Positions 6-43,305 of a stretch of DNA of 64,000 nt are shown here, piece by piece. Numbering within the stretch: the first letter of the stretch is position 1; every line of letters begins with the position of its first letter. This DNA comes from a virus, in the IMG/VR virus record IMGVR_UViG_3300027869_000006, positions 32,001-96,000 of that record. One strand, 5' to 3'. Both the position numbers and the translations under genes were made by a program. The notes below the pieces were generated by a model, which ran no database searches, had not been told where the DNA came from, and saw only the letters and a list, made by a program, of their open reading frames with translations.

Positions 6-1865
6 ATGATCCATGATGCCCTTGGATTCCTGGCAGGGGCGATTGGGGTTGTCTCCAGTGTACTGGGAACATTGATCGGCTGGGTTGGCGACTTCGTGGG
101 GGGGCTGGAAAAGGGCAATCCCCTGGCGGTGGCACTTGGCATTGCGCTGGTGACGGTTGGCACGGCTATTGCGGGTATCAAGCTGACGGAGTTTGTGCTT
201 GGGCTCCAGAACGCCTTTACGCAGGCTGGCGGACTCAGCGGTATCCTGGAGAAATTTATCAGTGATACCTTCCCCAATCTCGCTCGCTCCCTCGGCCTGG
301 TCAAGACGGCTGAAGTTGAGGTCGGAACCACCGCCGAAACGACGATGGCCGAGGGAGTGGCCACGGGGGCGACGGCGGCAGAGGCTTCCCTCGCGGGTAT
401 CGGTACTACTGCCGAAACCACGATGGCTGAAGGGGTCGCTACGGGGGCGGTAGAGTCAGTAACTTCGCTCGCGGAAGTCGGGACACAGGCAGAGATCACC
501 GCCGATACCGTCAAGACCTCCTCACTGAGTATGGCCGCATCCATTGGCTTGATTGGGGGCGCGATTGGACTCGTCCTGGTTGCTATCCCGCTCATCCAAC
601 AAGGGCTCGCTGCCACCAAACAGAATATGGATGATACCGCCAAAGGCTTGAGTACGCAGATTGATGCCGCTGCCTCCAAGATTCATGACTCCTTTATCCC
701 GGAAATAGCGAACGTCAATACCATGTCGGTGGCCCAGATCAGTGACATGAAAGCGAAGATCGTCAGTGAATTGGAACAAATCACCGGCAAGAGTCAGAGT
801 GATGCCGAAAAAATGGCGAATGACTGGATTTATGGGACACAACAAATGCAGACCCAGGTGTCTGCCAATCTTGCCACCATGTCACAGCAGGCCATCCAAT
901 CCGCGCAGCAACTCGTCAGTGGCGTCGAGCAGGCCCTCGCACAAATGCAGACCAATTCCGCCTCTGATATGGAGAGCATGAAGGAAGGCATCACCTCAGA
1001 ACTGATCTCAACCTACCATCTCTCCTATAGCACCGCGACCCAGATGTCAAGCCAGTGGAGCGCTGAACTGCAAAAGATGCAGAATGCCTCCCCGCAGCAG
1101 ATGGCCAGTATGCGCCAGCAGATGATTGATGAGCTTCAGAAAACGCTTGGGCTTTCCACCCAGGACGCCACGAACATGGCCGATCAGTGGATTGCCCAGG
1201 TCATGCGTGAGAAAGATCAGACCACCTATAACGTCATGCAACTGCATGACCAGGTTGCCCAACAACTCCAAGATACCGAGCACCTTTCAGCCTCAGCGGC
1301 GTCATCGATGGCCGATCAGGTCATTGGATCAGTCCAACATATGAAGGATATGGGCATCTCCGATACCGTCGCCATGAAGATTGCCATCGCGGAGGTCATG
1401 CAACAGATTACGGGCAATGCCCAGACATGGGGCGCGGATATGCTCAATGCCTACGCGGCGGGCATTGAGGCACAAATCCCCAACCTCCAACAATCGGTCG
1501 GGCAAGTCGCCCACCTGGTGCAGGCCAATCTGGGGTATTCCCTGCCAACGGAAGGAGTCCTGGCACACTCCGATGAGTGGATGCCTGACTTCGGCGACCT
1601 CCTTACACAAGGTCTGCTTGCCCAACAGCCAAAGATCAAGGCTGCCTCATCGGTGCTTGCCACCGCATTTGCTCCCCTGTTTCCTTCCGGGGGTCCTCTT
1701 CTTCCCTACCTTCCATCTATTGGAGGATACCAGGCAGCTCAGATGGCCGCCTCGAGTGGAGCAGGCGGGGTCATTGAAAATCATGTGTACATCATCCTGG
1801 ACAGCGAGCAGATTGGACACAGCGTGGTTCGCAATGCCCAACTACGGACAGGGATGAGGGTGTAG
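6..1865 (+). CDS. Phage tail tape measure protein (C-terminal part; probably starts before the window)
   Basis: Long Ala/Gln/Met-rich helical protein with periodic W residues, an internal repeat GTTAETTMAEGVATGA x2 and a TMP-like C-terminus (HVYIILDSEQIG); lies directly upstream of tail genes. Confidence 0.8.
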   Translation: MIHDALGFLAGAIGVVSSVLGTLIGWVGDFVGGLEKGNPLAVALGIALVTVGTAIAGIKLTEFVLGLQNAFTQAGGLSGILEKFISDTFPNLARSLGLVKTAEVEVGTTAETTMAEGVATGATAAEASLAGIGTTAETTMAEGVATGAVESVTSLAEVGTQAEITADTVKTSSLSMAASIGLIGGAIGLVLVAIPLIQQGLAATKQNMDDTAKGLSTQIDAAASKIHDSFIPEIANVNTMSVAQISDMKAKIVSELEQITGKSQSDAEKMANDWIYGTQQMQTQVSANLATMSQQAIQSAQQLVSGVEQALAQMQTNSASDMESMKEGITSELISTYHLSYSTATQMSSQWSAELQKMQNASPQQMASMRQQMIDELQKTLGLSTQDATNMADQWIAQVMREKDQTTYNVMQLHDQVAQQLQDTEHLSASAASSMADQVIGSVQHMKDMGISDTVAMKIAIAEVMQQITGNAQTWGADMLNAYAAGIEAQIPNLQQSVGQVAHLVQANLGYSLPTEGVLAHSDEWMPDFGDLLTQGLLAQQPKIKAASSVLATAFAPLFPSGGPLLPYLPSIGGYQAAQMAASSGAGGVIENHVYIILDSEQIGHSVVRNAQLRTGMRV

Positions 1866-1867
1866 AA

Positions 1868-4800
1868 ATGGTAGTTACCACAACAATTGGCTCAACCCCC
1901 GTCTCCTTGCTGAATGGTACGCCGCCAAGTCTGCATGATACGCTTGACCAACGCTCAACAATCCGTCTTGTGGTGATTGACAAAACAGGAACACTCCATT
2001 TTCAACCCATGCAACCCGTGACTATCACCGATAGTTACGCTGGTCGCCTGTTCACGGGCTACGTCAACGATGCGACGGAAACGAATCTCTCCCCGCAAAC
2101 CGCGATCACACATACTGTGACGTGTTTTGACCAACACTGGCTGGCCGATAAGCGCGTGGCATCCGGTGCCTCTGACGACGATGCCATGAGCAACCAGTAC
2201 GCTGGTGATAACGTCGTCTACTTGCTTGCGAACTACCTGGAAGCTGAGGGTGTCACGGCCTCGTATGCACAACGGCGCGAGAGTACGCTCACCGATTTTC
2301 AGGCAGGGACACTGACGAATGTGGTGGCGACCGACAACGTTGGTGATGGGGACCTGGAACTCTCGACGCAGGGGACGCCCGCAAGTACGACCTTTGGCAG
2401 TGGGTTCCGAGACTTTGTGACGGGCGCGACGCTCTCGAGTGTGGATTGCGCGGCAAGTGGGCAGCCCTTCTCGCAACTCAACCTGAAGGCATATAGCGCA
2501 CTCAAGTATAGCGGGACCAATGGCTCATCAAGCGCGGGCAATCTCGGCAATACCTACGCCTATTGGGAAGTGTGCAACGACGGCGCCACCGTGATTGCCT
2601 CGGGCGATACACTGCAATACGACGTGTGGATTTCCTCAACCAGTCCACTCATTCAAGGGGCCGTCGATTTCACCACCACCGATGGTATTGGCCTACGTGA
2701 CTTCCCCAATAACACGCAGGCAATGCATGACCAGAACTTTATCAAAGCGCATCCTGGCACCGATCTCTCCGGCTATGCCAACGATCAGTGGTATCACCGC
2801 ACGATTGATTTGACGCTCATGGCAGGCAAAACTATCTCGCACGTTGATCTCGCCTTTGAGGGCGATACCGGCGGCACGTACCTCGCCTATTTTCGCAACA
2901 TCTTCGTGTACAACAACAGTGGCGGCGTCAAGAAGACGGTCTTCGATAGCTCGCAACACGCCTATTCACCGCAACAACAGAGCATCAGTGGCAACTACCT
3001 GACGACTGATAATGGCTATACCAACCTCTCAGTGATGTTTGTGACGGTCTATGACCAAGTGGGGACCTGGATCAGTCCGGCTCTGAGTATTGATGCCGCC
3101 AAACTGGTGCGGGCAAGCCTGCTCAGTTGGACAACGAGCATGGCGGCGACCACAACTGCCGCGAGTCTTGCCAGTGGCATGGCTTCCCCCAATGTGCCTG
3201 CCGGTACTACGCTCACCTTGTACACGAGCATCGACAATAAGGCGACGTGGCAGGCAGCAACCTTTGAGTCTCCCATTCCAAATCTCTCTGGTGGCTTCAA
3301 CGTGACCAATAGGAGTATGTACGTCAAGGCGGTATTCGCCATCGCCAACCCAAGTCCTGAACTCTCACCGATCCTCACCGCTTTGCAAGCGACCGTTTCG
3401 AGTTCCTGGTCGCAAGTGAAAACCGATAGCATCACGACCGCAGGAGTCCAGGGAGATTTCAACACCGGCAACTATACGAATACCGCCTGGTATAGTGACC
3501 CGGGTGGGGCAAATACGAACCTCTTTCCATCGACTGATGTGGGTGTCACGCTCTCCGGCTATTGGACGGGATGGGATCGGCCTGATGGCACGATTGGCAA
3601 TGTGACGATCTATACGGCCCTTGCCACCACGAATGTCTATACGTGGTATCGGCAACTCAACATCTATGCGATATCCGGCGGGGATATCCGCGTGAAGCTC
3701 AACAATGCACCGAACCTGCAAAACTTTACGGCACAACTGAGTGTGGCTGTGCGTGAAGATGTGAGTCGGGAAAACGGCGTGGGTTTCGTGTATCGCACCA
3801 CGAACTGGGCCAATGCCAACGAGACGTGGGCCTATACGGTGATGCTGGAATTTAACGCGGGGATGGGTTCCACCTTTTCAGCCACGCCCTTTGTGCATGT
3901 GCAACTTGGACGGGCGAATAATGCCGGGACGACCACCGGGACCTATGTCAGTATTGCCGATGTGCTCCTCCCCTTTGTACCCAAAATCAATACCGTCTAT
4001 ACACTCAAAGTCGTCGTGAATGGGAACTCCCATAAGGTCTACGTCGATGACGTGCTGTGGATCAACGCGACCGACAGCACCTGGACAGCCTCCGGCGGAT
4101 TTGGCATTCGCTACTACAACGCCAGTGGGAATGGCTATACCGGCATCTATGACAACTTTGGGGTCGTGCAAAGTCTGTCCGGCCAATGGGATAACGGCTC
4201 AGGTATCGTCCTTGGCTCAGGCATTGGCACGGTCGGCAATTCCCTGGTTGCCTGGGATGCGGATGTACCGTCGGGTGGGACGCTCTCCGCGCTCACCAGC
4301 GTGGATGGTGGGGCTACCTGGCAATCGGCGACCAGTGGCAGCGCCATCCCCAACCTGGCACCAGGGACCAATACGGTGGGGAAATCCGTGCGGATCAAGT
4401 TCCTCCTTGGAGCCAACGCGCCCATTGTGACCCCCATTCTGAAGGGATGGACCATCTGGCTCACCAAACAAACCAACGCAGCAGGGAGCAGAGTCTCCCT
4501 TGGCCTTGACCTCTCAGCCGCCGGGCGTGCCGGGTCCACGCTCGTCAATTGGAATGGGGCAACCCCGCCTGGAACGAACATCTTCATCGATAGTGCGCCT
4601 GATAACACCACCTGGACGAACCTTGGCAGTGGCGCACAAGGCAACGCCCAAATCGCAGGCATACAGAGCCAACTCGACCCGATAGATGATACCTTTGACA
4701 GCAATACGAGTGGCTTCTATGTCTCGACCTTCCAGACCAATGGGACCACCGCCACCTGGGACTTCTCGACGGCGGTGCCTGCCACCTCATATATCAGTGC

Positions 4801-25240: not shown

Positions 25241-25382
25241 TAGGCGAGATGATACCCAACCCATCTTGCCCATAAGGAAGGGCTTGCTTACCCCATGCTT
25301 AAAAGACAGGGACTTCCGCAAGCCCGATTGGTGAGAGAGACCTCCCTTGACAACCACGTACAATGGGAAGAAGGAGAGAAGT

Positions 25383-26426
25383 ATGCCTGATTACCCCCTG
25401 GCTGAGGAACACTTTGTACCTCGATCATATATGTTCGATAGCAATGCATGCAAAGTTTTGGTAATTCACAAGACGGGTGGAGACGCAACCCCTGCGGCGA
25501 TCCTTCAAACGTTTCTCACGAACCCGGATCGACCATCGGTCCATTATGGCGTAGGCACAGATGGGAGTATCTGGCAGTACGTCCCTGAAGCACTCGGCGC
25601 GGGCGGGAACTGTTGCGTGGAACCGGGCTATGACCCATTCTGGGCACAATTTAACCCGATGGCTGTTGGGTCATCTTCTGGAACCAACCTGAATACAGTC
25701 ACACTCTCTCTTGAGCATTGCGATGCGGCACTTGACAATAGTACGCCACTTACCCCAACTCAGCAAGATGCGAGCTTCAAACTCATTGCCTACCTGGTCG
25801 CCAAGTATAGCATCCCCCTTTCACACATCAAGGGCCACAATACAATTGACCCACAGAGTCGCGCCCGTTGCCCAGGTAACTACCCCTGGCCCGCGTTATT
25901 TGCCTATCTACAAAATGGAGGGAATATGGCAGGAGTACCAATCGGCTGGCAATACGACCAGGCGACGCAAACATTGACGGACCCCAACGGTGGGAAGGTA
26001 GGTCCACCCTATAGCGCACACGTGTTAGCAAGTAACTGGGACCCGCATAACTTTCTTTGGATCGCCGCCTACCATACCAATCAGCTGGAAGCAGCGAACC
26101 CTGGCCTGGGTGCGGGGACACAAATCATCTTCTATGAGTCCATGCTGTGCGTGCCTGATAATCCCCCAGACCCGAACCTTGCGAACCTGAAGGGAAAAGT
26201 GGTCACGGAATATGTCGGGATTGAAGCGGCCTATGCCCGTAGTCAGTGGACCCGCTATTCGGGAATAGCCCAACAGTTTCAAACACAATTCACAGAGGAG
26301 CAGACAAAAAATACGGCCCTGACTGCCCAAGTCGCACAACTGGAAGCACAGATCGCCGCGCTCTCCCAACCCACGGCGGATGCACAGGCGATTGTGCAGA
26401 TCAAGCAGATTGTGGCGGCGCTATGA
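25383..26426 (+). CDS. Endolysin, N-acetylmuramoyl-L-alanine amidase (Amidase_2) with C-terminal coiled coil
   Basis: VIHKT, SVHY, SLEH, IKGH, CPG zinc-amidase motifs; RBS AAGGAG. Confidence 0.85.
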   Translation: MPDYPLAEEHFVPRSYMFDSNACKVLVIHKTGGDATPAAILQTFLTNPDRPSVHYGVGTDGSIWQYVPEALGAGGNCCVEPGYDPFWAQFNPMAVGSSSGTNLNTVTLSLEHCDAALDNSTPLTPTQQDASFKLIAYLVAKYSIPLSHIKGHNTIDPQSRARCPGNYPWPALFAYLQNGGNMAGVPIGWQYDQATQTLTDPNGGKVGPPYSAHVLASNWDPHNFLWIAAYHTNQLEAANPGLGAGTQIIFYESMLCVPDNPPDPNLANLKGKVVTEYVGIEAAYARSQWTRYSGIAQQFQTQFTEEQTKNTALTAQVAQLEAQIAALSQPTADAQAIVQIKQIVAAL

Positions 26427-26560
26427 AGTGGTTTTTCAGATGGGTCCATCAAGTGATGTCTTTGTTACACAAGAGGCGCAGCTATAGCGAAACGATCCTG
26501 GCTGAGAAGCCGATCCGTTACTATCGACTCGATGGAAGTGACACAACACGTGAGCAATGA
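26423..26560 (+). CDS. Small ORF ending in a truncated LamG-module N-terminus
   Basis: ATGA overlap with the amidase stop; YSETILAEKPIRYYRLD resembles YRTTILADNPLYYNR in 20720..23731. Confidence 0.4.
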   Translation: MKWFFRWVHQVMSLLHKRRSYSETILAEKPIRYYRLDGSDTTREQ

Positions 26561-27275
26561 AGAGTGCAAACTGATTGCATACCAACTCTATGATGGTGAT
26601 CTCCCCATGCAAATCGTTCCGGCACCGCGCAAACGGCAGTGGATGGATCAGACGCCACAGAGTTTTGCGAACCGTTGCCTCCCGCTCTTACTGGGAAATG
26701 CGAGCGGCTGGTGGCTCTTGAACACGCACGAGATACAGGTGACCTGGAACGGCGGCACTGATCTCTCCGCGCTCACCATCGCGGGTCGGGGTAGTTCGGA
26801 GACCGGCTATGCACTGAGCCATTTTGGTAACGGTCTCTTAACTTGGAATATTCCCCTGCTCTTTTCCACGCCCCCTGGATATAATTTGCTGGTACGTGGC
26901 CCTGCAAACTGGCCCAAAGACGGGGCATACGCACTGGACGGGCTTGTGGAGACAGATCACGCTGTGGCGACATGGACCATGAACTGGAAGATGACGCGGC
27001 CTGGCCTGACCGTCACCTTTGCCAAGGGCGAACCGATAGCACAAATCGTGCCACAGAAGCGTGGAGAACTAGAGACATTCACCCCGCAAGTACGGAACAT
27101 CAGAGAGGCACCAGAGTTACAAGCTGCATACAATGCGTGGGCATCTAGTCGCTCAACATTCAATATGGAACTGAAGAGACCAGGGTCAGAGGCAGTGAAG
27201 CGGCAATGGCAAAAGGATTACTTCCAAGCATCCCATCAAACAAAGGTCGCATTGAAGGAGTTCACAACTCCATGA
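26532..27275 (+). CDS. DUF6065 family protein
   Basis: PAPRKRQWMD...FANRCLPL...GW...LLFSTPPGYNL.VRGPAN.PKDGA..LDGLVETD...TMNWKMTRPG. Confidence 0.75.
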   Translation: MEVTQHVSNEECKLIAYQLYDGDLPMQIVPAPRKRQWMDQTPQSFANRCLPLLLGNASGWWLLNTHEIQVTWNGGTDLSALTIAGRGSSETGYALSHFGNGLLTWNIPLLFSTPPGYNLLVRGPANWPKDGAYALDGLVETDHAVATWTMNWKMTRPGLTVTFAKGEPIAQIVPQKRGELETFTPQVRNIREAPELQAAYNAWASSRSTFNMELKRPGSEAVKRQWQKDYFQASHQTKVALKEFTTP

Positions 27276-27311
27276 CATCTCTCTCTCATTTCTTAGACAG
27301 TTGGAGGACAT

Positions 27312-27896
27312 ATGGCAACGACACCGACAAAAACCCCGAAGCAGCAAGCCTCACTCGCAGGCGTCTGGCAGGGCATTGAGGCACCAATCATCGGTATCCT
27401 CCTCTCCCTTGCCGTAGCTATTCAGCAGTATTTTAGTACCCATAGTGCCCCAAATTGGGGAGAACTGGGAATGATCCTGTTCCCGACCGTCATTGTTGGT
27501 ATTGTGCAAGCACTCAAGCAGTTCAATGCAACACTCGGGCAGGCATCAGTTCCCATCGTCACCGTCCCGCCGCCCGCACCGGTTGTCTCACCATCCGACA
27601 TTGCGGCAGCGATACGACAGCAGGTACCAGGACTGGTCATACAACAGCCACCGGCACCACCGTCGTTCATTGCGCCGTCAGTGCCACCAGGAGGATACGA
27701 TACGACGCTGGTCCAACCCCTCTCATTCGCCCCTCTGACCACGCCTGCCCAGCCACAACAACCGTACACGTGGTCACAGCCAGAACCATCCCCGACACTC
27801 ACGACACCTGCGCCAGTAATTACGCCGGTATTGTCACTGCCAAGTACGTTTCCGCAAACACTCGATTTACCAATCGTACGACCACAAATTGAGTAA
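27312..27896 (+). CDS. Holin-like membrane protein with Pro-rich C-terminal tail
   Basis: Two N-terminal TM segments, long Pro/Thr-rich tail; RBS GGAGG; lysis region. Confidence 0.55.
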   Translation: MATTPTKTPKQQASLAGVWQGIEAPIIGILLSLAVAIQQYFSTHSAPNWGELGMILFPTVIVGIVQALKQFNATLGQASVPIVTVPPPAPVVSPSDIAAAIRQQVPGLVIQQPPAPPSFIAPSVPPGGYDTTLVQPLSFAPLTTPAQPQQPYTWSQPEPSPTLTTPAPVITPVLSLPSTFPQTLDLPIVRPQIE

Positions 27897-27897
27897 T

Positions 27898-27935
27898 AAT
27901 AAAGGGTACTACATCTGCATGTAGTACCCTTTATT
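27898..27935. terminator. Bidirectional terminator-like hairpin
   Basis: Perfect 17-bp inverted repeat AATAAAGGGTACTACAT-CTGC-ATGTAGTACCCTTTATT between convergent units. Confidence 0.8.
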
Positions 27936-27936
27936 C

Positions 27937-28129
27937 ATCCCATACCATACCGCATCCCGCCGGACTGCACCCCACCCAGCCTTGCCAGACATTACCCCGC
28001 ATCGCCACGCCTTACCCCACCGAACTACACCTTACCAACCAGACCATGCCGAACCCGACCGGACCACGCTATACCGTACCTTACCTTACTGAACCCAGCC
28101 AAGCCGGACCTCACCATACCTACCGTGCC
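27937..28129 (-). repeat. (GGY-NN) pentamer array 1, 39 units; putative guide RNA locus
   Basis: Minus strand GGC AC GGT A GGT AT GGT GA GGT CC GGC TT...; 31/39 triplets are exact GGY and the rest are one mismatch away; two 4-nt phase slips; starts 1 nt after a stop codon and ends at the terminator. Confidence 0.9.
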
Positions 28130-28130
28130 A

Positions 28131-28349
28131 TTAAGCGTATCGTGTTTGGTCTGTCTCCCAGTTCACTAAACGTACAGGTGTCACATCTAAGTCTGTGATA
28201 GGAATGCCATACTTTTCTTCAGCTAAACTCAGTCCTTCCTGAGCATCACTAGCGGTTATCTCACCCACTATAGGCACCTGCTGCTTTCTTAGCTTGGCAT
28301 GCACGGTAGTGTCATGTCCCTTATACCAAACATCGAACCTATGCAACAT
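28131..28349 (-). CDS. Small hypothetical protein (72 aa) translationally coupled to the Cas7-like gene
   Basis: TAATG stop/start overlap at 28347-28351; MLHRFDVWYKGHD... Confidence 0.65.
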   Translation of the reverse strand: MLHRFDVWYKGHDTTVHAKLRKQQVPIVGEITASDAQEGLSLAEEKYGIPITDLDVTPVRLVNWETDQTRYA

Positions 28350-28897
28350 TACTTCACCTTTTCCCATGACACAAGAGCAAATCTCCCATACGGCCCTTTC
28401 TTTGCAGGACGGAAGTCACCAATGCCAACAAGTCGCCCTGCATCGGTGAGTATGTCACGGATAAGACGTTCACCAACTAGATCGGTATCAATCTGAACAT
28501 CAAACTCCATATTCCACTCATCGAACATTGGCCTGTGGCGTAGAATACGCCCCCCAGTCGCTTTAATGACAACAGCCCGTGAGTCCACATGCCATTCCCC
28601 TACCAGAGGAATTTCAAATGGGCTAACATAGACCCCTGCCGCTACATCAGTTGTCGCAGCCCTCCGTCCAATTTTGTGTCGTGATGCTGCTGCAATCATT
28701 GACTGCCGAATATTCTCAGCCGGATAGAATGGGCTATGTTCATTGGTATACAGGCGACTTGCCGCATCTTCATGAGGAGCCGGATATTCTTTCCGACCAT
28801 GTGTTCCTGAAGTTGCTTCCTCTGCCGCTGCCTCATGAAAACGATTCACGATGAGCGGCGTCAAACTCGTAATGTTGACCTTGTACGTTACAATCAT
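28349..28897 (-). CDS. Solo RAMP/Cas7-like protein (Vipr-like), 182 aa
   Basis: RAMP hallmarks: first strand YKVNITSLTPL, YPAENIRQSM helix, WNMEFDVQID strand, C-terminal Gly-rich loop AGRLVGIGDFRPAKKGPYGRF; RBS AAAGGA before ATG 28897. Confidence 0.8.
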   Translation of the reverse strand: MIVTYKVNITSLTPLIVNRFHEAAAEEATSGTHGRKEYPAPHEDAASRLYTNEHSPFYPAENIRQSMIAAASRHKIGRRAATTDVAAGVYVSPFEIPLVGEWHVDSRAVVIKATGGRILRHRPMFDEWNMEFDVQIDTDLVGERLIRDILTDAGRLVGIGDFRPAKKGPYGRFALVSWEKVK

Positions 28898-28926
28898 GTG
28901 TGTTATCCTTTCTGTGTGAGTAACTT

Positions 28927-28962
28927 GTGTGGTGCCCTGCCCCAGTGGTAGGGCTACCACGC
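28927..28962. promoter_or_regulatory. GC-rich hairpin between array 2 and the Cas7-like gene
   Basis: GTGTGGT-GCCCTGCC-CCAGT-GGTAGGGC-T-ACCACGC imperfect inverted repeat at the 3' end of array 2 (minus strand). Confidence 0.55.
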
Positions 28963-28977
28963 GAAACAAAATGAACA

Positions 28978-29370
28978 AAACCATACCAGACCGGACCTCG
29001 CCAAACCCGGCCTTGCCAGACCGGGCCTTGCCAGACCGGGCCAAACCCGACTACACTAGACCTCATCATGCCACACCTCCCATACCATACCCATCCTTAC
29101 CGAACTGCGCCAGACCGCAACGTACCAGACCGCGGCAAGCCGGGCCGGACCCAACCTAACCTATTCCTCAGCAAACCATGCTATACCCCACCTGACCGTA
29201 GCACTCCTTCCAAACCGCACCATACCCAACCAAGCAGGACCCCGCGTCACCGCACCTGATCGGGCCATACCCCACCTGACCAAGCCGTGCCTACCTTGCC
29301 GCACCAAACCTCACCTCACTCAGTCTTGCCTCGCTGGACCTAGTCGCACCGAACCTGACCTTGCCGTGCC
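28978..29370 (-). repeat. (GGY-NN) pentamer array 2, 79 units; putative guide RNA locus
   Basis: 58/79 triplets are exact GGY and the rest are one mismatch away; phase slips at 29078-81, 29162-67, 29208-11, 29292-95. Confidence 0.9.
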
Positions 29371-30005
29371 ATAATCCTGCTATAGGCCAATTTCACGCAG
29401 AACTCAACGTCATTCCATACCTGGGAGCCAGTGAAGCGAAGAACGTACCAGCCTTGATCTTCAATCGTATGCTGTCGCATATAGTCTCTATTTCGGTCTC
29501 TCTTGTGACTATGGAACGCTTGCCCATCAAGTTCGATTACTATCTTTGCTTCAACATGGGCAAAGTCTACACGATACTTACTAATCCGATGCTGTCGCTC
29601 AAGAGGGATATCTGGATACAGCAGGCACCATGCTTCATAAAAGGCTTCCTCGATGGGACTTCCATTCTTGACGGATTGCTGAATTTCCCGTAAACGATTA
29701 CGAGCCTCATTAAGTGCAGCCTCACGTTGTTGATTAGCAAGTCGCAAGGCTTCTACTCGCTCTGCTTCTAGTGCTTGACGACGTTCTAGGGCCTGCTCTC
29801 GCTTCTCCCGAATGGTTGCTACTTCAATCTCTCTCTGGACAGATTGCTGATGCTCATTCGCACGACGCTTCAACTCCCTAGCTTCCTGAATCATACTAGC
29901 TTTCTCTGCCGCAAGTTGACGTTGTATGGCAAGTTCATGCTCTCTGTCAGCTTGAAGTTTTCGTTGTTGTTCTTGATAGTCGTTGAATGCTTGCCAGTCC
30001 ATCAT
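29340..30005 (-). CDS. Coiled-coil + DUF559/Vsr-like (PD-D/ExK) endonuclease
   Basis: SPIEEAFY...ERQHRISKYRVDF...IVIELDGQAFH...RNRDY.RQ..IEDQGWYVLRFTGSQV. Confidence 0.85.
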   Translation of the reverse strand: MMDWQAFNDYQEQQRKLQADREHELAIQRQLAAEKASMIQEARELKRRANEHQQSVQREIEVATIREKREQALERRQALEAERVEALRLANQQREAALNEARNRLREIQQSVKNGSPIEEAFYEAWCLLYPDIPLERQHRISKYRVDFAHVEAKIVIELDGQAFHSHKRDRNRDYMRQHTIEDQGWYVLRFTGSQVWNDVEFCVKLAYSRIMARQGQVRCD

Positions 30006-30007
30006 GC

Positions 30008-30181
30008 TTATTGTTCTCGTTTTGTAGGCTTTTGCTGTTTCTGTTGTACTCGTTCTAATTCTTGGTTCGCTAAACGGTCAAGAAGACTCACGATACTCTC
30101 CCCTGTGATGGCATGAAGCATACGCAAGGTGGTAAGTGTCCTTGTCCAGATGCGAGTTGTTTTGTAGTCATCGGTAGCCAT
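30008..30181 (-). CDS. Small RHH-like DNA-binding protein (57 aa, absent from the ORF track)
   Basis: Hand translation MATDDYKTTRIWTRTLTTLRMLHAITGESIVSLLDRLANQELERVQQKQQKPTKREQ; strand-helix-G.S-helix pattern. Confidence 0.6.
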   Translation of the reverse strand: MATDDYKTTRIWTRTLTTLRMLHAITGESIVSLLDRLANQELERVQQKQQKPTKREQ

Positions 30182-30187
30182 GAAGTT

Positions 30188-30216
30188 ATTTTACTACAAA
30201 CAAGTGTTCTTGTCAA
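30188..30216 (-). promoter_or_regulatory. sigma70 promoter of the array/Cas7-like cassette (leaderless)
   Basis: TTGACA-17nt-TAAAAT-6nt-ATG(30181). Confidence 0.75.
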
Positions 30217-30276
30217 GAGGAAAAGAAGACGCCCTTGACACAAGCATATACTAAGAGCAGAAGGGGGAATTTTTCT

Positions 30277-30837
30277 TTGGAACGCGGGTCCGTTATTCTT
30301 TTTGAGAAGGATGGCAGTCTCTTCAATTGGCTCATCACGAAAGCAACTCATGGTCCCTATGTCCATGTGGAAATTTGCCTGGGCGAGGAACGCCTGATCG
30401 GTGCTCACGGTAACCGTCGCGGCATCTATGAGCGTGATTGGGCCGATGCACCTTCGTTAGTGACGGAGGTCTCTCTCTCCCCCTATGCCGATGAAGAGCA
30501 CATCGAGCAGGCCCTTACCTGGGCGCAAGAGCAACAGGGGCATCCCTATGGATGGTGGGATATCGCCAGTCAGTCCATCAAGTTCTTGTGGCCAACGACA
30601 CCGCTCCGGTTCAGCAAGTCAGACGCATGGGGGTGTGCAGACTATGTGACCCGCTATCTGATACAAGCAGGGGTGGCCTTGCCAGAAGACTTCATGGACC
30701 CTGGGAAAAACTCGCCCAACGATATTGGACGGTTGTTCCATCTCGTTCCACAACGGCCACAACGCATCAGAAAACGGGAGAGAGAGTTGAGGAAAGGTCA
30801 TGCCATTGCCGCATTTGCCGCCTCCAGACGAGGATGA
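30277..30837 (+). CDS. Permuted papain-like (YaeF/YiiX, NlpC/P60 superfamily) amidase
   Basis: G.VILF...THGPYVHVEI (His first)...GHPYGW...WGCADYV (Cys later); TTG start 7 nt after AAGGGGGAA. Confidence 0.7.
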   Translation: MERGSVILFEKDGSLFNWLITKATHGPYVHVEICLGEERLIGAHGNRRGIYERDWADAPSLVTEVSLSPYADEEHIEQALTWAQEQQGHPYGWWDIASQSIKFLWPTTPLRFSKSDAWGCADYVTRYLIQAGVALPEDFMDPGKNSPNDIGRLFHLVPQRPQRIRKRERELRKGHAIAAFAASRRG

Positions 30838-31036
30838 CATCTATCTCACATCGGCGGAACTCGAGCAATTACTGGCCACGACCAAAGAAGTGGAGCAATT
30901 GCAAGAGGGTAATCCGACCGTCACGCAGGCACTTGCCGCCGATAGACAGCGCCGCAAACTCTTACGTCGTCTGCTCCACGGTGTTGCCAGGCAATGGCGT
31001 CACACGCTATCAAGTACCGAGCCAGGAAAGGACTAA
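30800..31036 (+). CDS. Hypothetical protein
   Basis: ORF with RBS, in an operon context. Confidence 0.5.
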   Translation: MPLPHLPPPDEDDIYLTSAELEQLLATTKEVEQLQEGNPTVTQALAADRQRRKLLRRLLHGVARQWRHTLSSTEPGKD

Positions 31037-40663: not shown

Positions 40664-42076
40664 CTAGTCAACCTCTCTCTCTTCTTCAAAGTCATCTGCA
40701 TAGGGTCGTGCTACATGCGGAGGTGGTGGGGCAATACCCATCACGGACAGTGGGAAGAACCGCGTTGTCTCCTCCTGGAAATAGAGGGAGAAGGTCTCCT
40801 GCGGTCCCATACGGAACTTGGCCACGATCAGTTCCGCGATGTGCGTTGGAGTATAATTCTGGCGTCCTTCCTGCCTGGCATAGTGATCCTCACGGTAGAT
40901 AAACCACACGTTCGAGGCATCCTGCTCGATGGTACCGCTCTCTCTCAGGTCGGATAACTGCGGGCGCTTGTTGGAGCGCTTCTCGTTCTCCCGGTTCAGT
41001 TGCGCCAGCGCGAGCACGGGTCGGTCGAAGGTGCGGGCGAGAGCGAGCAACCCCCGGCTAATCGCGGAGACCTCCTGCACGCGGTTCTCATAGCGTTTGC
41101 CCTCCGTCTCAGGGGTACCAATGAGTGAGAGGTAGTCCACCACGATCAAATCGGGCATGTTCCCCTCACTGGCCATGCGCTGTAATTTCATCTGCATACT
41201 CACGAGGGGGCTCCCGGTCGTGTCATCGATCCAGAGGGGGAGGGAGGCCAGTTCCATCCGGGCCGCGATGATACGCTCCCACTCGTGATCCTCGATGTAG
41301 CCGTTGCGCAGCCGCACGGTATCTACCTTAGAGAGCATAGAAACAAGCTTCAGCCCAAGTGCCTCCGACCCCATCTCCAGACTGAAGATGATCACCTTGT
41401 TCCCGCGTTTGGCCGCGTTATAGGCCATGCATACCCCTAGGGAGGATTTACCGAGTCCAGGACGGGCTGCCAGGATCGTGACCTCTTTCTTCTGTAAGCC
41501 ATTGGTAAGCGTGTCCAGGTCATCGAAGCCCGTCGGCACGCCCAGGATGGTACCCCGATGCTCGTGCGCGTAGTCCAGGTTGGCCATCACGCGGTCAAGG
41601 ATGAGGTCAATATGCTCCGGCCCCTTAGCTGAACACCGTAGCCCGATATCGAGCACTAACTGGTTCGCCTTCATCAGTGCCGTATCGGCATCCCCCTCCT
41701 CGTAGGCAATGGCCGCGATCTGGCCTGCCGCCCAGATGAGCCTGCGTAGGATGGCCGTGCGCTCCACGATGCGCCCATAGTGCTCGACGTTTCCGCTCGT
41801 CGGAACGTGGTTGATCAATCCGGTGATGTAGGAGGCCCCACCTACGTCATCGAGCTTGCCGCGACGTTCCAATTCGTCACAGATCGTGATAAAGTCAGCA
41901 GACTCGTGTGCATTGAAGAGGGCGATGATCACCTCAAAGATGGCACGGTGGGCATCACGGTAGAAGTCCGCCGGGCGCAAGAAGTCACCCACCTGTAAGA
42001 CGGCTTCCGGGTCAATGATGATGCTGCCAAGCACCCCTCGCTCAGCTTCGACATTCTGTGGGAGCATTTTTTCCAT
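40664..42076 (-). CDS. dnaB: Replicative DNA helicase
   Basis: LPQNVEAERGVLG N-domain; AARPGLGKS Walker A; IVVDYL; LAQLNR; DLRESGTIEQDA; VAKFRMGP. Confidence 0.95.
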   Translation of the reverse strand: MEKMLPQNVEAERGVLGSIIIDPEAVLQVGDFLRPADFYRDAHRAIFEVIIALFNAHESADFITICDELERRGKLDDVGGASYITGLINHVPTSGNVEHYGRIVERTAILRRLIWAAGQIAAIAYEEGDADTALMKANQLVLDIGLRCSAKGPEHIDLILDRVMANLDYAHEHRGTILGVPTGFDDLDTLTNGLQKKEVTILAARPGLGKSSLGVCMAYNAAKRGNKVIIFSLEMGSEALGLKLVSMLSKVDTVRLRNGYIEDHEWERIIAARMELASLPLWIDDTTGSPLVSMQMKLQRMASEGNMPDLIVVDYLSLIGTPETEGKRYENRVQEVSAISRGLLALARTFDRPVLALAQLNRENEKRSNKRPQLSDLRESGTIEQDASNVWFIYREDHYARQEGRQNYTPTHIAELIVAKFRMGPQETFSLYFQEETTRFFPLSVMGIAPPPPHVARPYADDFEEEREVD

Positions 42077-43305
42077 TAGCCGCCCCCTTCCGCTTTCGCG
42101 GTATAGTGCGCACGGAGGGCGGCCATGCGCTGCGATCCCTCGGTTGGCCCTATGAGTGGAGGCGCGTGCCTAATGCCCTGCACCTTCGCCTTCTCAATTT
42201 TCTCCAATTGCTCTTTGATGGCCCCGGCAACCTCACAGATATCAATGCTCCGCTGACACCAATACTCATCAATAGTCAACATGCGGGTACGGGCGGCAAT
42301 CACCTCAGCCTGTGTATAGTTTTTCACCATGCGATAGGCACATGTATTCGCCTGGGCAATTTGCCGATCCGTCAGTAACTCCTTGCCCCCGCGCCACATC
42401 TGGAAGAGGTGCAGGCAGGCAGGAACATCCCACTTCACGGGTGATGGGGCAGTAACAGGTACCCCATCCCGCAGGACCGTGTGCTTGATACCCCCTGTCG
42501 GTTGCAAGGAAGCCGCGAGCGACACAGCTACCTGCTTGTCCGTCGGTGGCCCTTCGTCTTCTCGCTCCTCTTCGGTCTCAGGTACAGGGGATGTATCTTC
42601 AAGAGGTGAGAGAGGGAGAACAGGCTCAAGTTGTGAAAATGTTGGAACAACCGGAATCTCTCTCTCTAAGTCTAAAGAAGATTCTGTAATAGATTCTAAT
42701 AAGAGGTTAGAATTTTCAACCTCCCCAGGTTCAAAATCTGAAGGTGGGATGTCCGAATTTTCAACCTCCCCACTTTCTAAATTAGAACCTGGGAGGTTCG
42801 GAATTAGAACCTCCCCCCCACCTTCGGAATTAGAACCTCCCTTGAGGAAGAAGCTAAATGTATCCTTGGGTAACTGGCTCATTGCCTCTTGAATGAGTGG
42901 ACGGTTGAGGGTATAGAGCGGCGCACCAAATTCCTCCCCTGGTTTACTCCGTGTATAAATCAATGTCTTCTTAATGAGGGAGTTGATAGCCAGGCGGAGC
43001 GTCGTCTTCGAGAGAGAAAGGGGATGCTTTGCTCCTACTTTTTTAGAGTCGAATCGGTAGAGTCGGGCCAGGATTTGTGTATAGGAGAGACGTACCCAGT
43101 AGACCTTTGGTTCAGGTGGGGGAGTGCGTTTTTCTTCAACTGCCTTCGCTACGCGGGTTTGCCAGTTCTCTTTCTGCTTGACCATATCATATTCAATGAT
43201 ACGCATAATCTTGGCTTCCAGTTCGTCCTGGCAAATGAGGACGAACTCAAGTCGCTCCATAAGAAAAAGGTTAAAGGGAAATTCAAAGACCGTTGCTTCA
43301 CTCAT
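42076..43305 (-). CDS. Phage replication initiator-like protein
   Basis: N-terminal wHTH-like segment (SKTTLRLAINSLIKKTLI), repeat-encoded middle, coupled to dnaB. Confidence 0.65.
   Translation of the reverse strand: MSEATVFEFPFNLFLMERLEFVLICQDELEAKIMRIIEYDMVKQKENWQTRVAKAVEEKRTPPPEPKVYWVRLSYTQILARLYRFDSKKVGAKHPLSLSKTTLRLAINSLIKKTLIYTRSKPGEEFGAPLYTLNRPLIQEAMSQLPKDTFSFFLKGGSNSEGGGEVLIPNLPGSNLESGEVENSDIPPSDFEPGEVENSNLLLESITESSLDLEREIPVVPTFSQLEPVLPLSPLEDTSPVPETEEEREDEGPPTDKQVAVSLAASLQPTGGIKHTVLRDGVPVTAPSPVKWDVPACLHLFQMWRGGKELLTDRQIAQANTCAYRMVKNYTQAEVIAARTRMLTIDEYWCQRSIDICEVAGAIKEQLEKIEKAKVQGIRHAPPLIGPTEGSQRMAALRAHYTAKAEGGG
42660..42841. repeat. Iteron-like repeats and AT-rich stretch: putative replication origin
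   Basis: GAATTTTCAACCTCCCCA at 42710 and 42755; TTCGGAATTAGAACCTCCC at 42797 and 42823; AATTAGAACCT at 42780. Confidence 0.65.

What the first reader, a model, noticed from the sequence alone, without database searches (positions are those of the whole stretch)
27898..30216. Phage cassette: solo Cas7/RAMP-like gene between two (GGY-NN)n pentamer arrays, a non-CRISPR RNA-guided system candidate
Seen: one minus-strand unit runs TTGACA-17-TAAAAT promoter > RHH-like gene > DUF559 nuclease > 79 pentamers (28978-29370) > hairpin > 182-aa protein > 72-aa ORF > 39 pentamers (27937-28129) > perfect 17-bp hairpin. Each pentamer is a near-constant GGY triplet (89 of 118 exact, all others one mismatch) plus a free dinucleotide, so these are neither microsatellites nor CRISPR arrays. 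Established: the 182-aa protein has RAMP hallmarks (first strand ending TPL, P.E.IR helix, Gly-rich loop GIGDFRP..GPYGRF), and RAMPs such as Cas7/Csm3 polymerise on guide RNA. No cas1/2/5/6/10 gene is in the window. Inference: one protomer binds each GGY and presents NN for base pairing. This matches my recollection of the recently reported VIPR (Viral Interference Programmable Repeat) architecture, which needs checking against the literature.
Basis: partly seen in the sequence, partly recalled or inferred. Interest (0 to 1): 0.97.

Follow-up and report, generated by a model that had tools for sequence, protein, structure and literature searches.

The report
Phage VIPR locus with DUF559 nuclease
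This soil phage carries a VIPR system, a CRISPR-related RNA-guided DNA-binding system first published in 2026, so it is a new example of a known kind; its own twist is a steady nuclease partner and two guides that spell rival versions of the two genes bordering the cassette.

Summary
On the minus strand of 27898-30216 lie a promoter-like site, a 57-aa ORF, a DUF559 nuclease gene, a pentamer array, a 182-aa gene, a 72-aa ORF, a second array and a 17-bp hairpin.

The 182-aa protein is a Vipr. It matches the solved SUSP1 Vipr (PDB 36pp, E 6.6e-8), folds like Csm3/Cas7, and keeps the GGY-contacting residues. The arrays hold 111 in-phase GGY-NN units, 87 of them exact. They are "staggered" vrRNA arrays as in fig. 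S18 of the VIPR preprint, giving about seven guides.

This scan already holds about 600 VIPR notes from other genomes.

What this work adds:
- The DUF559 gene is a constant partner in the ≥65%-identity Vipr clade (9 other loci).
- Guides B1 and B2, decoded by the published 1-nt-skip code, spell diverged alleles of the two genes flanking the cassette. The resident copies differ largely by Ser/Leu codon-family switches.
- Relatives show the same logic, with real non-self targets at 80-93% NN match.

The targets of array A are unknown. Homing or rival exclusion by cleavage is possible but unproven.

The parts
30188..30216 (-). Sigma-70-like promoter TTGACA-17-TAAAAT at the head of the cassette, divergent from the right flanking gene
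   Evidence: matches 11 of 12 positions. This is a consensus match only; transcription was not tested.
30008..30181 (-). 57-aa ORF (P0004), a small helical protein and possible DNA-binding regulator
   Evidence: No Pfam, PHROG or PADLOC family. The AF2 model shows two helices, pLDDT 86. In relatives the same slot holds an RHH_1-like ORF (L136, L142) or an HTH_17 ORF (L130, L134).
29340..30005 (-). DUF559 / Vsr-like PD-(D/E)xK nuclease with a Q/E/R-rich N-terminal coiled-coil region (P0003); candidate accessory (vap) gene of this clade
   Evidence: Pfam DUF559 E 1.3e-15 and MTES_1575 E 3.9e-12. Homologues sit directly upstream of array plus vipr in L002, L003, L129-L132, L134, L136 and L142. 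D147, E158, D160 and H165 are invariant. Its last codons are encoded by the first array units.
28978..29370 (-). vrRNA array A, with units counted in phase: A1 29370-29291 (16 units), A2 29291-29212 (16), A3 29197-29173 (5, degenerate partial copy of A2), A4 29161-29082 (16), A5 29077-28978 (20)
   Evidence: A1 and A2 share one G at a GGTAG|G junction, as in the staggered arrays of fig. S18 of the VIPR preprint and as at 42 junctions in relatives.
28927..28962 (-). Weak hairpin between array A and vipr
   Evidence: dG -20.2, z -1.8, and 9 of 200 shuffles fold as well. Not convincing as a structure.
28349..28897 (-). vipr gene (P0001, 182 aa): a minimal RAMP protein of the Vipr family
   Evidence: PDB 36pp_D 'SUSP1 Vipr protein', E 6.6e-8. 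phrog_4652, E 7e-17. AF2 pLDDT 87. Foldseek top hits are Csm3/Cas7. R122 and D161-F162-R163 align with SUSP1 R138 and D177-W178-R179 and are (near-)invariant among 39 homologues.
28131..28349 (-). 72-aa ORF (P0002) whose ATG overlaps the vipr stop codon; orphan of doubtful significance
   Evidence: No family. No homologue among 1.84 billion representative proteins. Absent from all relatives' loci.
27942..28130 (-). vrRNA array B: B0 28130-28121 (GGCAC GGTAG leader), B1 28120-28036 (17 units), B2 28036-27942 (19 units)
   Evidence: There are one-base overlaps at GGTAG|G and GGTTG|G. B2 ends in GGTAT GGTAT GGGA, as A4 does.
27898..27935 (-). Perfect 17-bp hairpin with a 4-nt loop and a U-rich tail; terminator-like end of the cassette
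   Evidence: dG -27.6 kcal/mol, z -7.7, 0 of 200 shuffles fold as well.
27825..27863 (+). Resident, mismatched counterpart of guide B2, in the last codons of the left flanking gene (27312-27896; membrane protein with Pro-rich tail)
   Evidence: 11 of 13 decoded residues are compatible (PVLSLPSTFPQTL). This is the genome-wide best hit, and 0 of 400 shuffled or random guides reach it. NN identity is only 17/26, with 4 Ser/Leu codon-family switches.
30271..30321 (+). Resident, mismatched counterpart of guide B1, across the start codon and first 14 codons of the right flanking gene (phrog_1128 family)
   Evidence: BLOSUM score 57 against 39 for the next best site in the genome; P = 0.0025 with shuffled guides and 0/400 with random guides. 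NN identity is 20/34. The guide reads ATx where the resident start codon is TTG.

Best explanation
This is a VIPR system (Viral Interference Programmable Repeat) carried by a roughly 110-kb tailed phage from soil.

How it most likely works:
- One minus-strand transcript from the promoter at 30216 probably covers a small regulator-like ORF, a DUF559 nuclease, array A, vipr and array B, and ends at the 17-bp hairpin.
- Vipr protomers bind one GGY each. R122 and the G-loop D161-F162-R163 take the roles shown for SUSP1 Vipr.
- They form a filament on each guide. The one-base phase slips at GGT(A/T)G|G junctions break the register and so mark off about seven guides of 16-20 units.
- The exposed NN dinucleotides pair with double-stranded DNA, skipping every third target base, and so silence the bound gene.

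What the guides aim at:
- Guides B1 and B2 are aimed at non-self alleles of the two genes that border the cassette. B1 covers the start of the right gene and B2 the end of the left gene.
- The resident copies are protected by mismatches, many of them Ser/Leu codon-family switches that keep the protein unchanged.
- The weapon therefore sits next to its own antidote and acts against sibling phages during co-infection.
- The targets of the array-A guides are unknown.

The DUF559 nuclease is a clade-specific accessory gene. Whether it cuts Vipr-marked DNA is inferred, not shown.

Shown here: family membership, array anatomy, linkage in relatives, validity of the skip code in this clade, and the near-cognate flank matches. 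Inferred: transcription, processing, binding, and the biological target.
For: Vipr identity:
- phmmer hit to PDB 36pp_D 'SUSP1 Vipr protein', E 6.6e-8, over the thumb and G-loop.
- AF2 pLDDT 87, pTM 0.80.
- Foldseek top hits are Csm3/Cas7 of type III-A and type VII, E 5e-8.
- The GGY-contact residues named in 10.64898/2026.04.26.720927 align to invariant residues.

Arrays and their linkage:
- 111 in-phase units, 87 exact GGY, against a chance rate of 0.037.
- 59 of 80 IMG/VR relatives carry such tracts: 200 on the vipr strand and 4 on the other.
- The same one-base-overlap junctions occur at 42 distinct sites in the clade, with the consensus GGCA(A/T) GGT(A/T)G.
- This matches the legend of fig. 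S18.

Skip code, re-derived on this clade. Hits at >=20/24:
- skip 0: 1
- skip 1: 42
- skip 2: 4
- skip 3: 8
- shuffled guides: 0

Flank-directed guides in this window:
- B2: 11/13 residues compatible at 27825-27863, with 0/400 nulls reaching this.
- B1: BLOSUM 57 at 30271-30321, P 0.0025.
- Both sites are in frame with the skipped base at wobble, and both lie within about 100 bp of the cassette ends.

The same logic in relatives:
- L022 guide: 26/28 NN to the L019/L054 allele, 20/28 to its own neighbour.
- L039 guide: 24/30 against 20/30.
- L097 guide: 24/30 against 16/30.
- L136 terminal guide: matches its convergent neighbour at the residue level, with Leu family switches.
- Over 143 guides, scores >=46 occur in 4.9% of real guides against 0.3% of shuffled ones, and 6 of the 7 lie within 400 bp of the arrays. 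A smaller replicate agrees.

DUF559 linkage.

Phage context: tape measure, endolysin, DnaB and methyltransferase genes. No Cas1 or Cas2.
Against: - No real target sequence reaching >=80% NN match was found for any of the seven guides. Searched: the phage's own genome, four related phage genomes, 187 relatives' loci, IMG/VR and JGI metagenomes.
- The left flanking gene has no homologue at all in 5.8 billion proteins, and the right one has only four distant ones. The rival alleles are therefore inferred, not seen.
- About a fifth of the units depart from GGY, and A3 is a degenerate fragment, so some guides may be dead.
- Nothing here shows transcription, processing or RNP formation.
- Staggered arrays were not among the architectures confirmed by small-RNA sequencing in the preprint.
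- The preprints' type tables were not available, so the VIPR type, and whether DUF559 is one of vap1-6, cannot be stated.
Confidence: 0.8

Rival explanations
1. RNA-guided homing or marker exclusion. The Vipr filaments formed on B1 and B2 mark the two sides of the empty insertion site in cassette-free sibling genomes. The DUF559 nuclease then cuts there. Recombinational repair from the cassette-bearing genome copies the cassette together with its immune flanks. This extends the best explanation; it does not oppose it.
For: - B1 and B2 bracket the cassette, with sites 35-73 bp and 55-105 bp from its ends.
- The nuclease is a constant partner of array plus vipr in the >=65%-identity clade, in genomes that have no homologue of this window's two flanking genes.
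- DUF559 is Vsr-like, and PADLOC gives a weak hit to a homing-endonuclease model, E 0.0017.
- The resident flanks are recoded at Ser/Leu codons.
- Other notes of this scan report cassette-free siblings for similar DUF559 cassettes. These are unchecked here.
Against: - No cassette-free sibling of this phage is available.
- No cleavage activity is known for any Vipr-linked DUF559 protein.
- In the best-documented relatives (L022 against L019/L054) the targeted genome also carries a VIPR locus, so the target is not an empty site.
- Relatives outside the DUF559 clade show the same neighbour-allele logic (L022, L039, L097).
Confidence: 0.3
2. Self-regulation. B1 and B2 bind the phage's own flanking genes through partial pairing and so time their expression.
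For: The best genome-wide similarity of both guides is to the resident flanking genes, and B1 covers a translation start.
Against: - NN identity to the resident copies is 59-65%, which is the level that shuffled guides reach anywhere in the genome.
- It is well under the 80% used for natural targets. Perturbing NN pairing abolished silencing in the preprint.
- The mismatches sit where the protein can be kept while pairing is lost. That is the signature of avoidance, not of use.
Confidence: 0.05
3. Decaying relic. The cassette is a remnant whose guides no longer work.
For: - 24 of 111 units depart from GGY.
- A3 is a 5-unit fragment that partly copies A2.
- No target was found for array A.
Against: - vipr is intact, with every invariant residue of the family present.
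- The DUF559 catalytic-type residues are invariant.
- The preprint notes frequent internal degeneracy in working vrRNAs.
Confidence: 0.07

Closest known systems
VIPR systems with staggered vrRNA arrays (bioRxiv 10.64898/2026.04.26.720920, fig. S18 legend)
   Same: - A lone Vipr RAMP gene flanked by GGY/NN pentamer arrays on the same strand.
- Successive guides overlap by one base.
- No cas genes.
- Phage-borne.
   Different: - The preprint did not confirm this architecture by small-RNA sequencing.
- This work adds a conserved terminal motif, GGCA(A/T) GGT(A/T)G, a DUF559 partner gene, and guides that spell alleles of the bordering genes.
- The VIPR type could not be assigned because the preprint's tables and figures are not held.
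Type II VIPR of Escherichia phage SUSP1 (PDB 36pp / 36PK; 10.64898/2026.04.26.720927 and 10.64898/2026.10.15.759431)
   Same: - Homologous Vipr with the same GGY-contact residues.
- GGY/NN code with a 1-nt skip and wobble-aligned targets.
- Rival-directed guides that spare self.
   Different: - Only the C-terminal 65 residues align by phmmer.
- SUSP1 vrRNAs have 9-16 repeats plus a pseudoknot tail and are separate units. Here there is no tail and the guides abut.
- The SUSP1 partner is vap1, a predicted DNA-binding protein (vap genes of type II). Here it is a nuclease.
- SUSP1 targets a satellite recombinase. Here the inferred targets are sibling alleles of the neighbouring genes.
Csm3 / Cas7 backbone subunits of type III and type VII CRISPR effector complexes
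   Same: - RRM core, thumb and glycine-rich loop.
- One protomer per fixed stretch of guide, with periodic base flipping.
   Different: - 5-nt rather than 6-nt period.
- No second RRM, no Cas10, Cas5 or Cas6 partners, no CRISPR repeats and no adaptation genes.
- Sequence identity is 10-16%.
Free-standing phage homing endonucleases with marker exclusion (T4 seg/mob genes) and EDxHD/Vsr-like homing endonucleases such as I-Bth0305I (from my own knowledge, not checked in the library)
   Same: - A nuclease gene inserted between two conserved phage genes.
- Recognition sites lie in the sibling's flanks, and the resident flanks are immune through silent changes.
   Different: - Here recognition would be supplied by RNA guides rather than by the nuclease itself.
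- Cleavage and homing are not shown.

Membership tests
VIPR system | Vipr protein: a minimal RAMP with RRM core, thumb and glycine-rich loop, homologous to described Vipr proteins | tested here: met
   PDB 36pp_D SUSP1 Vipr, E 6.6e-8. Csm3/Cas7 fold matches, E 5e-8. GIGDFRP G-loop and RHRP thumb residues are invariant.
VIPR system | Residues that hold G1, G2 and Y3 of each repeat (SUSP1 R138, D177, W178, R179) | tested here: met
   They align to R122, D161, F162 (aromatic kept) and R163. R122, D161 and R163 are invariant and F162 is >=90% conserved among 39 homologues. SUSP1 H17 could not be aligned.
VIPR system | Tandem YNNGG (GGY/NN) repeats, at least 4 units, next to vipr on the same strand | tested here: met
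   111 in-phase units in two arrays, 87 exact. Relatives: 200 same-strand tracts against 4 on the opposite strand.
VIPR system | Minimal locus without cas genes or CRISPR repeats; mostly viral or proviral | tested here: met
   No Cas1 or Cas2 in the 110-kb record. No CRISPR-like repeat. No Rfam family. Phage hallmark genes are present. It is an IMG/VR record.
VIPR system | Targets follow the 1-nt-skip code | tested here: inconclusive
   The code holds for this Vipr clade: 42 hits at skip 1 against 1, 4 and 8 at other skips and 0 for shuffled guides. For this window only near-cognate, wobble-aligned resident sites were found, and no site reaches >=80% NN.
VIPR system | vrRNAs are expressed, processed and co-purify with Vipr | not testable with these tools
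   Only one DNA run, from a soil metagenome, holds the stretch.
VIPR, staggered-array architecture | Adjacent vrRNAs overlap by one nucleotide | tested here: met
   A1/A2 share base 29291, B1/B2 share 28036, and B0/B1 show the same junction form. There are 42 such junctions in the clade.
VIPR accessory gene (vap) | A gene conserved in synteny with vipr across independent members of a clade | tested here: met
   DUF559 sits directly upstream of array plus vipr in 9 other loci with >=65%-identity Vipr. It is absent from the 57-62% clade. Whether it equals one of the published vap1-6 could not be checked.
CRISPR-Cas class 1 | Repeat-spacer array plus multi-subunit effector (Cas5, Cas7 and a large subunit), usually with Cas1-Cas2 | tested here: not met
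   There is a single RAMP gene and the period is 5 nt.
Ribbon-helix-helix regulators (for the 57-aa ORF) | Beta-alpha-alpha fold or an RHH profile match | tested here: not met
   No Pfam hit at E<=5. The AF2 monomer shows two helices and no strand. A monomer model is a weak test for a fold that forms on dimerisation.

The most novel reading that the evidence does not exclude
The cassette is an RNA-programmed homing or marker-exclusion element. Guides B1 and B2 mark both sides of the empty site in cassette-free sibling phages. The linked DUF559 nuclease cuts the marked DNA, and repair copies the cassette together with its recoded, immune flanks. VIPR would then be not only a silencer but also the targeting module of a selfish mobile element. 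That would be an RNA-guided counterpart of phage homing endonucleases, and a step from binding to cutting inside a virus.
Probability: 0.3. Interest if true: 0.8.

Novelty: new member of a known kind. Interest (0 to 1): 0.42.

Why it matters
VIPR was published only in 2026, and its staggered-array forms have not been confirmed by RNA sequencing.

This locus and its clade offer three things:
- A clean example with a defined junction motif.
- An independent re-derivation of the 1-nt-skip code on a distant Vipr clade.
- A nuclease that travels with the system inside phages. The preprint ties nuclease-bearing VIPR types to host defence islands.

The pairing of each flank-directed guide with a recoded resident allele is a poison-antidote arrangement. 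It explains why targets sit next door, and it gives a concrete, testable route to RNA-guided homing.

For the scan, the practical point is that this is a known family seen many times already. It should not be ranked as a new class.

Tried and rejected
Target searches at the nucleotide level (1-nt skip):
- Own genome: best 59-65% NN, equal to shuffled guides.
- Four related phage genomes plus 107 loci, and 80 metagenome loci: nothing above the shuffles.
- Exact 11-unit scans of IMG/VR for A1, A2, B1 and B2 and of JGI metagenomes for B1: 0 hits each.
- Residue-level decoding of all guides against 1.87 Mb of relatives' DNA: nothing above the shuffles.

Tools that gave nothing:
- Sequencing runs: no RNA holder is listed; the only holder is the probable source soil metagenome.
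- Complex prediction for Vipr plus DUF559: no verdict.
- Rfam: no hammerhead or other family in 27000-31000.
- PADLOC: no model for Vipr.

Readings rejected:
- The nucleotide-level test for enrichment of best hits near arrays was weak (35% against 19% at >=17/24). Only the residue-level test is clear.
- A coding reading of the arrays is rejected. A period of 5 is not a multiple of 3, and the ORFs crossing the arrays are not conserved.
- The right flanking gene is not shown to be an endolysin (phrog_1128), so I do not call the flanks a lysis pair. A true amidase/endolysin lies at 25347-26426.
Full report
**1. What is there**

Read on the minus strand, window 30216 to 27898 holds the following, in order:
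- a TTGACA-17-TAAAAT promoter-like site
- a 57-aa ORF
- a 221-aa ORF
- a 393-nt tract with a five-base rhythm
- a 182-aa ORF preceded by AAGGA
- a 72-aa ORF whose ATG overlaps the preceding stop codon
- a 189-nt tract with the same rhythm
- a perfect 17-bp hairpin with a U-rich tail

The two tracts give the strongest lag-5 autocorrelation in the window. They are the only such tracts in the 110-kb record.

Followed in phase, they hold 111 pentamers. Of these, 87 are exact GGY, 22 have one mismatch and 2 are worse. All sixteen dinucleotides occur at the two free positions. GGY is expected at a rate of 0.037 from base composition.

**2. The literature**

The discovery preprint, bioRxiv 10.64898/2026.04.26.720920, describes Viral Interference Programmable Repeat systems:
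- A minimal RAMP protein, Vipr, works with vrRNAs made of alternating GGY and NN.
- Target double-stranded DNA is read two bases at a time, with one base skipped.
- The result is transcriptional silencing of competing mobile elements.
- There are seven types, six accessory (vap) genes and several array architectures. One is the "staggered" array, whose vrRNAs overlap by one nucleotide.

The structural preprint (.720927) names the residues that hold each GGY.

A third preprint (10.64898/2026.10.15.759431) shows the system at work against a satellite. It also describes guides aimed at rivals' vipr genes and vrRNAs that spare self.

**3. The protein**

- P0001 has no Pfam family but matches phrog_4652.
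- It matches the PDB chain 36pp_D, "SUSP1 Vipr protein", at E 6.6e-8 over residues 110-174.
- In that alignment SUSP1 R138 (thumb) and D177-W178-R179 (G-loop) fall on R122 and D161-F162-R163. R122, D161 and R163 are invariant and F162 is at least 90% conserved among 39 homologues.
- An AlphaFold model built on that alignment has pLDDT 87.
- Its best structural matches are Csm3/Cas7 subunits of type III-A and type VII complexes, E 5e-8.
- IMG/VR holds at least 509 relatives, and the metagenome set holds 333 or more.

**4. Linkage of protein and arrays**

In 80 IMG/VR loci oriented on the vipr strand, 200 GGY tracts of seven or more units lie on that strand and 4 on the other. Most abut the gene, and 59 of the 80 loci have at least one.

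**5. Array anatomy**

The tracts are not continuous. The phase slips by minus one at fixed places, so that the last G of GGTAG or GGTTG is also the first G of the next unit.

This gives the following guides:

| Guide | Coordinates | Units | Note |
|---|---|---|---|
| A1 | 29370-29291 | 16 | |
| A2 | 29291-29212 | 16 | |
| A3 | 29197-29173 | 5 | degenerate piece that partly copies A2 |
| A4 | 29161-29082 | 16 | |
| A5 | 29077-28978 | 20 | |
| B0 | 28130-28121 | 2 | leader, GGCAC GGTAG |
| B1 | 28120-28036 | 17 | |
| B2 | 28036-27942 | 19 | |

The closest relatives show the same thing. They have 42 distinct one-base-overlap junctions, a terminal consensus GGCA(A/T) GGT(A/T)G, and a median guide length of 15 units. 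This fits the legend of fig. S18 of the preprint. The preprint did not list that architecture among those confirmed by RNA sequencing.

A plausible but untested reading is that the register break ends one Vipr filament and starts the next, so that the junction motif acts as the 3' handle.

No hammerhead or other Rfam family is present.

**6. Accessory genes**

*DUF559 gene.* P0003 carries a DUF559 / MTES_1575 nuclease domain behind a Q/E/R-rich helical region. Homologues at 42-54% identity lie directly upstream of array plus vipr in nine other loci: L002, L003, L129, L130, L131, L132, L134, L136 and L142. These are the loci whose Vipr is about 65% or more identical to ours. The 57-62% clade lacks the gene. 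D147, E158, D160 and H165 are invariant. The two related genomes that could be read in full and carry this cassette (G001, G002) have no homologue of either gene that flanks it here. The nuclease is thus a clade-specific accessory gene by synteny. I could not check whether it is one of the published vap1-6.

*72-aa ORF.* It has no homologue in 1.84 billion representative proteins and none in the relatives' loci.

*57-aa ORF.* It has no family, and its monomer model shows two helices. The same slot in relatives holds RHH_1-like or HTH_17 ORFs. A small DNA-binding protein at the head of the operon seems to be the rule, but "RHH" is unproven here.

**7. Does the 1-nt-skip code apply to this clade?**

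I cut 246 guides from the relatives' loci into 286 twelve-unit chunks. I searched them against 1.58 Mb of VIPR neighbourhoods with the arrays masked. The results were:

| Search | Hits at >=20/24 NN positions |
|---|---|
| skip 0 | 1 |
| skip 1 | 42 |
| skip 2 | 4 |
| skip 3 | 8 |
| shuffled guides, skip 1 | 0 |

The published rule therefore holds for this distant Vipr clade. The database contains some duplicate loci, which inflates the counts but not the contrast.

**8. What the guides of this window aim at**

*Nucleotide level.* No site reaches the level of natural targets in any of these searches:
- own genome
- four related phage genomes and 187 loci
- exact 11-unit scans of IMG/VR for A1, A2, B1 and B2
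- an exact 11-unit scan of JGI metagenomes for B1

*Residue-level lead.* Notes by first-stage readers of this same stretch suggested decoding the guides as codon positions 1-2. I tested this genome-wide.

- The reverse complement of B2 reads P-[HQ]-[FL]-[RS]-[FL]-P-S-T-[FL]-P-[DE]-T-[FL].
- The last codons of the left flanking gene read PVLSLPSTFPQTL at 27825-27863.
- That is 11 of 13 compatible. It is the best site in the genome, and none of 400 shuffled or 400 random guides reach it.
- The reverse complement of B1 reads M-[DE]-R-G-T-[IM]-V-[FL]-[FL]-[DE]-[HQ]-[KN]-G-S-[IM] across the start of the right flanking gene.
- The resident sequence there is (TTG)-E-R-G-S-V-I-L-F-E-K-D-G-S-L.
- The BLOSUM score is 57, against 39 for the next best site (P 0.0025 shuffled, 0/400 random).

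*Geometry.* Both sites are in frame with the skipped base at wobble. They lie 35-73 bp and 55-105 bp from the two ends of the cassette.

*Mismatches.* Nucleotide identity to the resident copies is only 17/26 and 20/34. Seven of the nine compatible Ser, Leu or Arg positions use the other codon family. This includes all four serines, which need two base changes each.

The simplest reading is that B1 and B2 are aimed at other alleles of these two genes, and that the resident alleles are kept out of reach.

**9. The same logic in relatives, with real targets**

| Guide | NN match to non-self allele | NN match to own neighbouring gene |
|---|---|---|
| L022 guide | 26/28 (L019, L054) | 20/28, differing by a Ser AGC/TCN switch among others |
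| L039 guide | 24/30 (L076, L070), over a Walker-A-like DNPCVVIPTAGGKT | 20/30 |
| L097 guide | 24/30 (L067) | 16/30 |

In L136, a member of the DUF559 clade, the last guide of the downstream array decodes to its convergent neighbour. 11 of 16 residues agree, and two leucines are TTG where the guide reads CT.

Across 143 guides from 53 loci, residue-level scores of 46 or more occur in 4.9% of real guides against 0.3% of shuffled ones. Six of the seven lie within 400 bp of the arrays. A smaller independent set agrees: 3/72 against 3/360.

The purely nucleotide-level proximity test was weak.

Guides aimed at rivals while sparing self are in print for vipr genes and vrRNAs. Guides aimed at the genes bordering the cassette are not mentioned in the three preprints' main texts; the word "homing" does not occur in the October one, and the other two were not searched for it. 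Other reports of this scan have noted such guides, and DUF559 partners, on other DNA. I did not check those reports.

**10. Mechanism and rivals**

The best-supported account is a working VIPR silencer whose B guides act against sibling phages. Each guide is linked to a resistant resident allele. Tight linkage of weapon and antidote explains why the targets are next door.

- *Homing or marker exclusion.* Here the DUF559 nuclease turns binding into cutting and the cassette homes into empty sites. This is attractive but unproven. No cassette-free sibling is available, because the left gene has no homologue at all and the right gene has four distant ones. No activity is known for the nuclease. 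In the L022 case the targeted genomes also carry VIPR. I give it 0.3.
- *Self-regulation.* This is unlikely, because resident matches are at background level and the mismatches look selected.
- *Decayed relic.* This is unlikely, given intact and fully conserved vipr and nuclease genes.

**11. Context**

The record is an IMG/VR virus, estimated 85% complete. The window holds tape-measure, endolysin/amidase, DnaB-like helicase and DNA methyltransferase genes.

A relative's contig is labelled Ktedonobacteraceae in NCBI. This is only a hint at the host.

**12. Verdict**

This is a genuine VIPR locus, a new member of a published family, with staggered arrays. Its points of interest are:
- the DUF559 partner
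- the junction motif
- the two flank-directed guides with recoded resident alleles

Interest is moderate.

Noticed in passing
window 28986-29042 (minus strand, inside guide A5): A 15-nt tandem (GGCCC GGTCT GGCAA, 3.8 copies) lies inside one guide. Under the 1-nt-skip code it would read a 9-bp tandem repeat (xCCxCTxAA) in the target, such as iterons or a three-residue protein repeat. No such target was found.
   Followed up: partly
window 29173-29211 (minus strand): Guide fragment A3 (GGTCA GGTGG GGTAT ...) repeats units 3-5 of A2 and is bounded by irregular spacers. It looks like a partial duplication or a decaying guide inside the array.
   Followed up: no
L145/L146 8102-9642 and L147 10627-12979: Relatives with 57-62%-identity Vipr and no DUF559 gene carry very long downstream arrays of 1.5-2.4 kb, with 16 to 28 detected tracts.
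   Followed up: no
L039 1680-1754 and 1827-1871; L076 9143-9187; L070 7078-7122: A guide in L039 spells a Walker-A-like motif (DNPCVVIPTAGGKT) of the large gene next to rivals' VIPR loci at 24/30 NN. Its own copy reads DNPAIVLPTAAGKT (20/30). The target may be a helicase-type accessory gene.
   Followed up: partly
L022 3373-3427 versus 3482-3514: A guide upstream of vipr matches 18/22 NN positions within the first codons of its own vipr gene. This recalls the published vipr-directed guides. It was not examined further.
   Followed up: no
window 26532-27275 (+): A DUF6065 protein (Pfam E 8e-84) is encoded between the endolysin-like gene (25347-26426) and the membrane protein that borders the cassette. 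Its function is unknown.
   Followed up: no
window 322-474 and 42703-42816: There are two longer tandem repeats: 78 nt x 2 inside the tape-measure-like gene, and 45 nt x 2.5 inside the ORF at 42076-43305 on the minus strand.
   Followed up: no
window 29340-29370: The last ten codons of the DUF559 gene (MARQGQVRCD) are encoded by the first six array units. In relatives the nuclease also ends in ...AR(Q/H)(G/V)R, so coding sequence and guide array overlap as a rule.
   Followed up: partly
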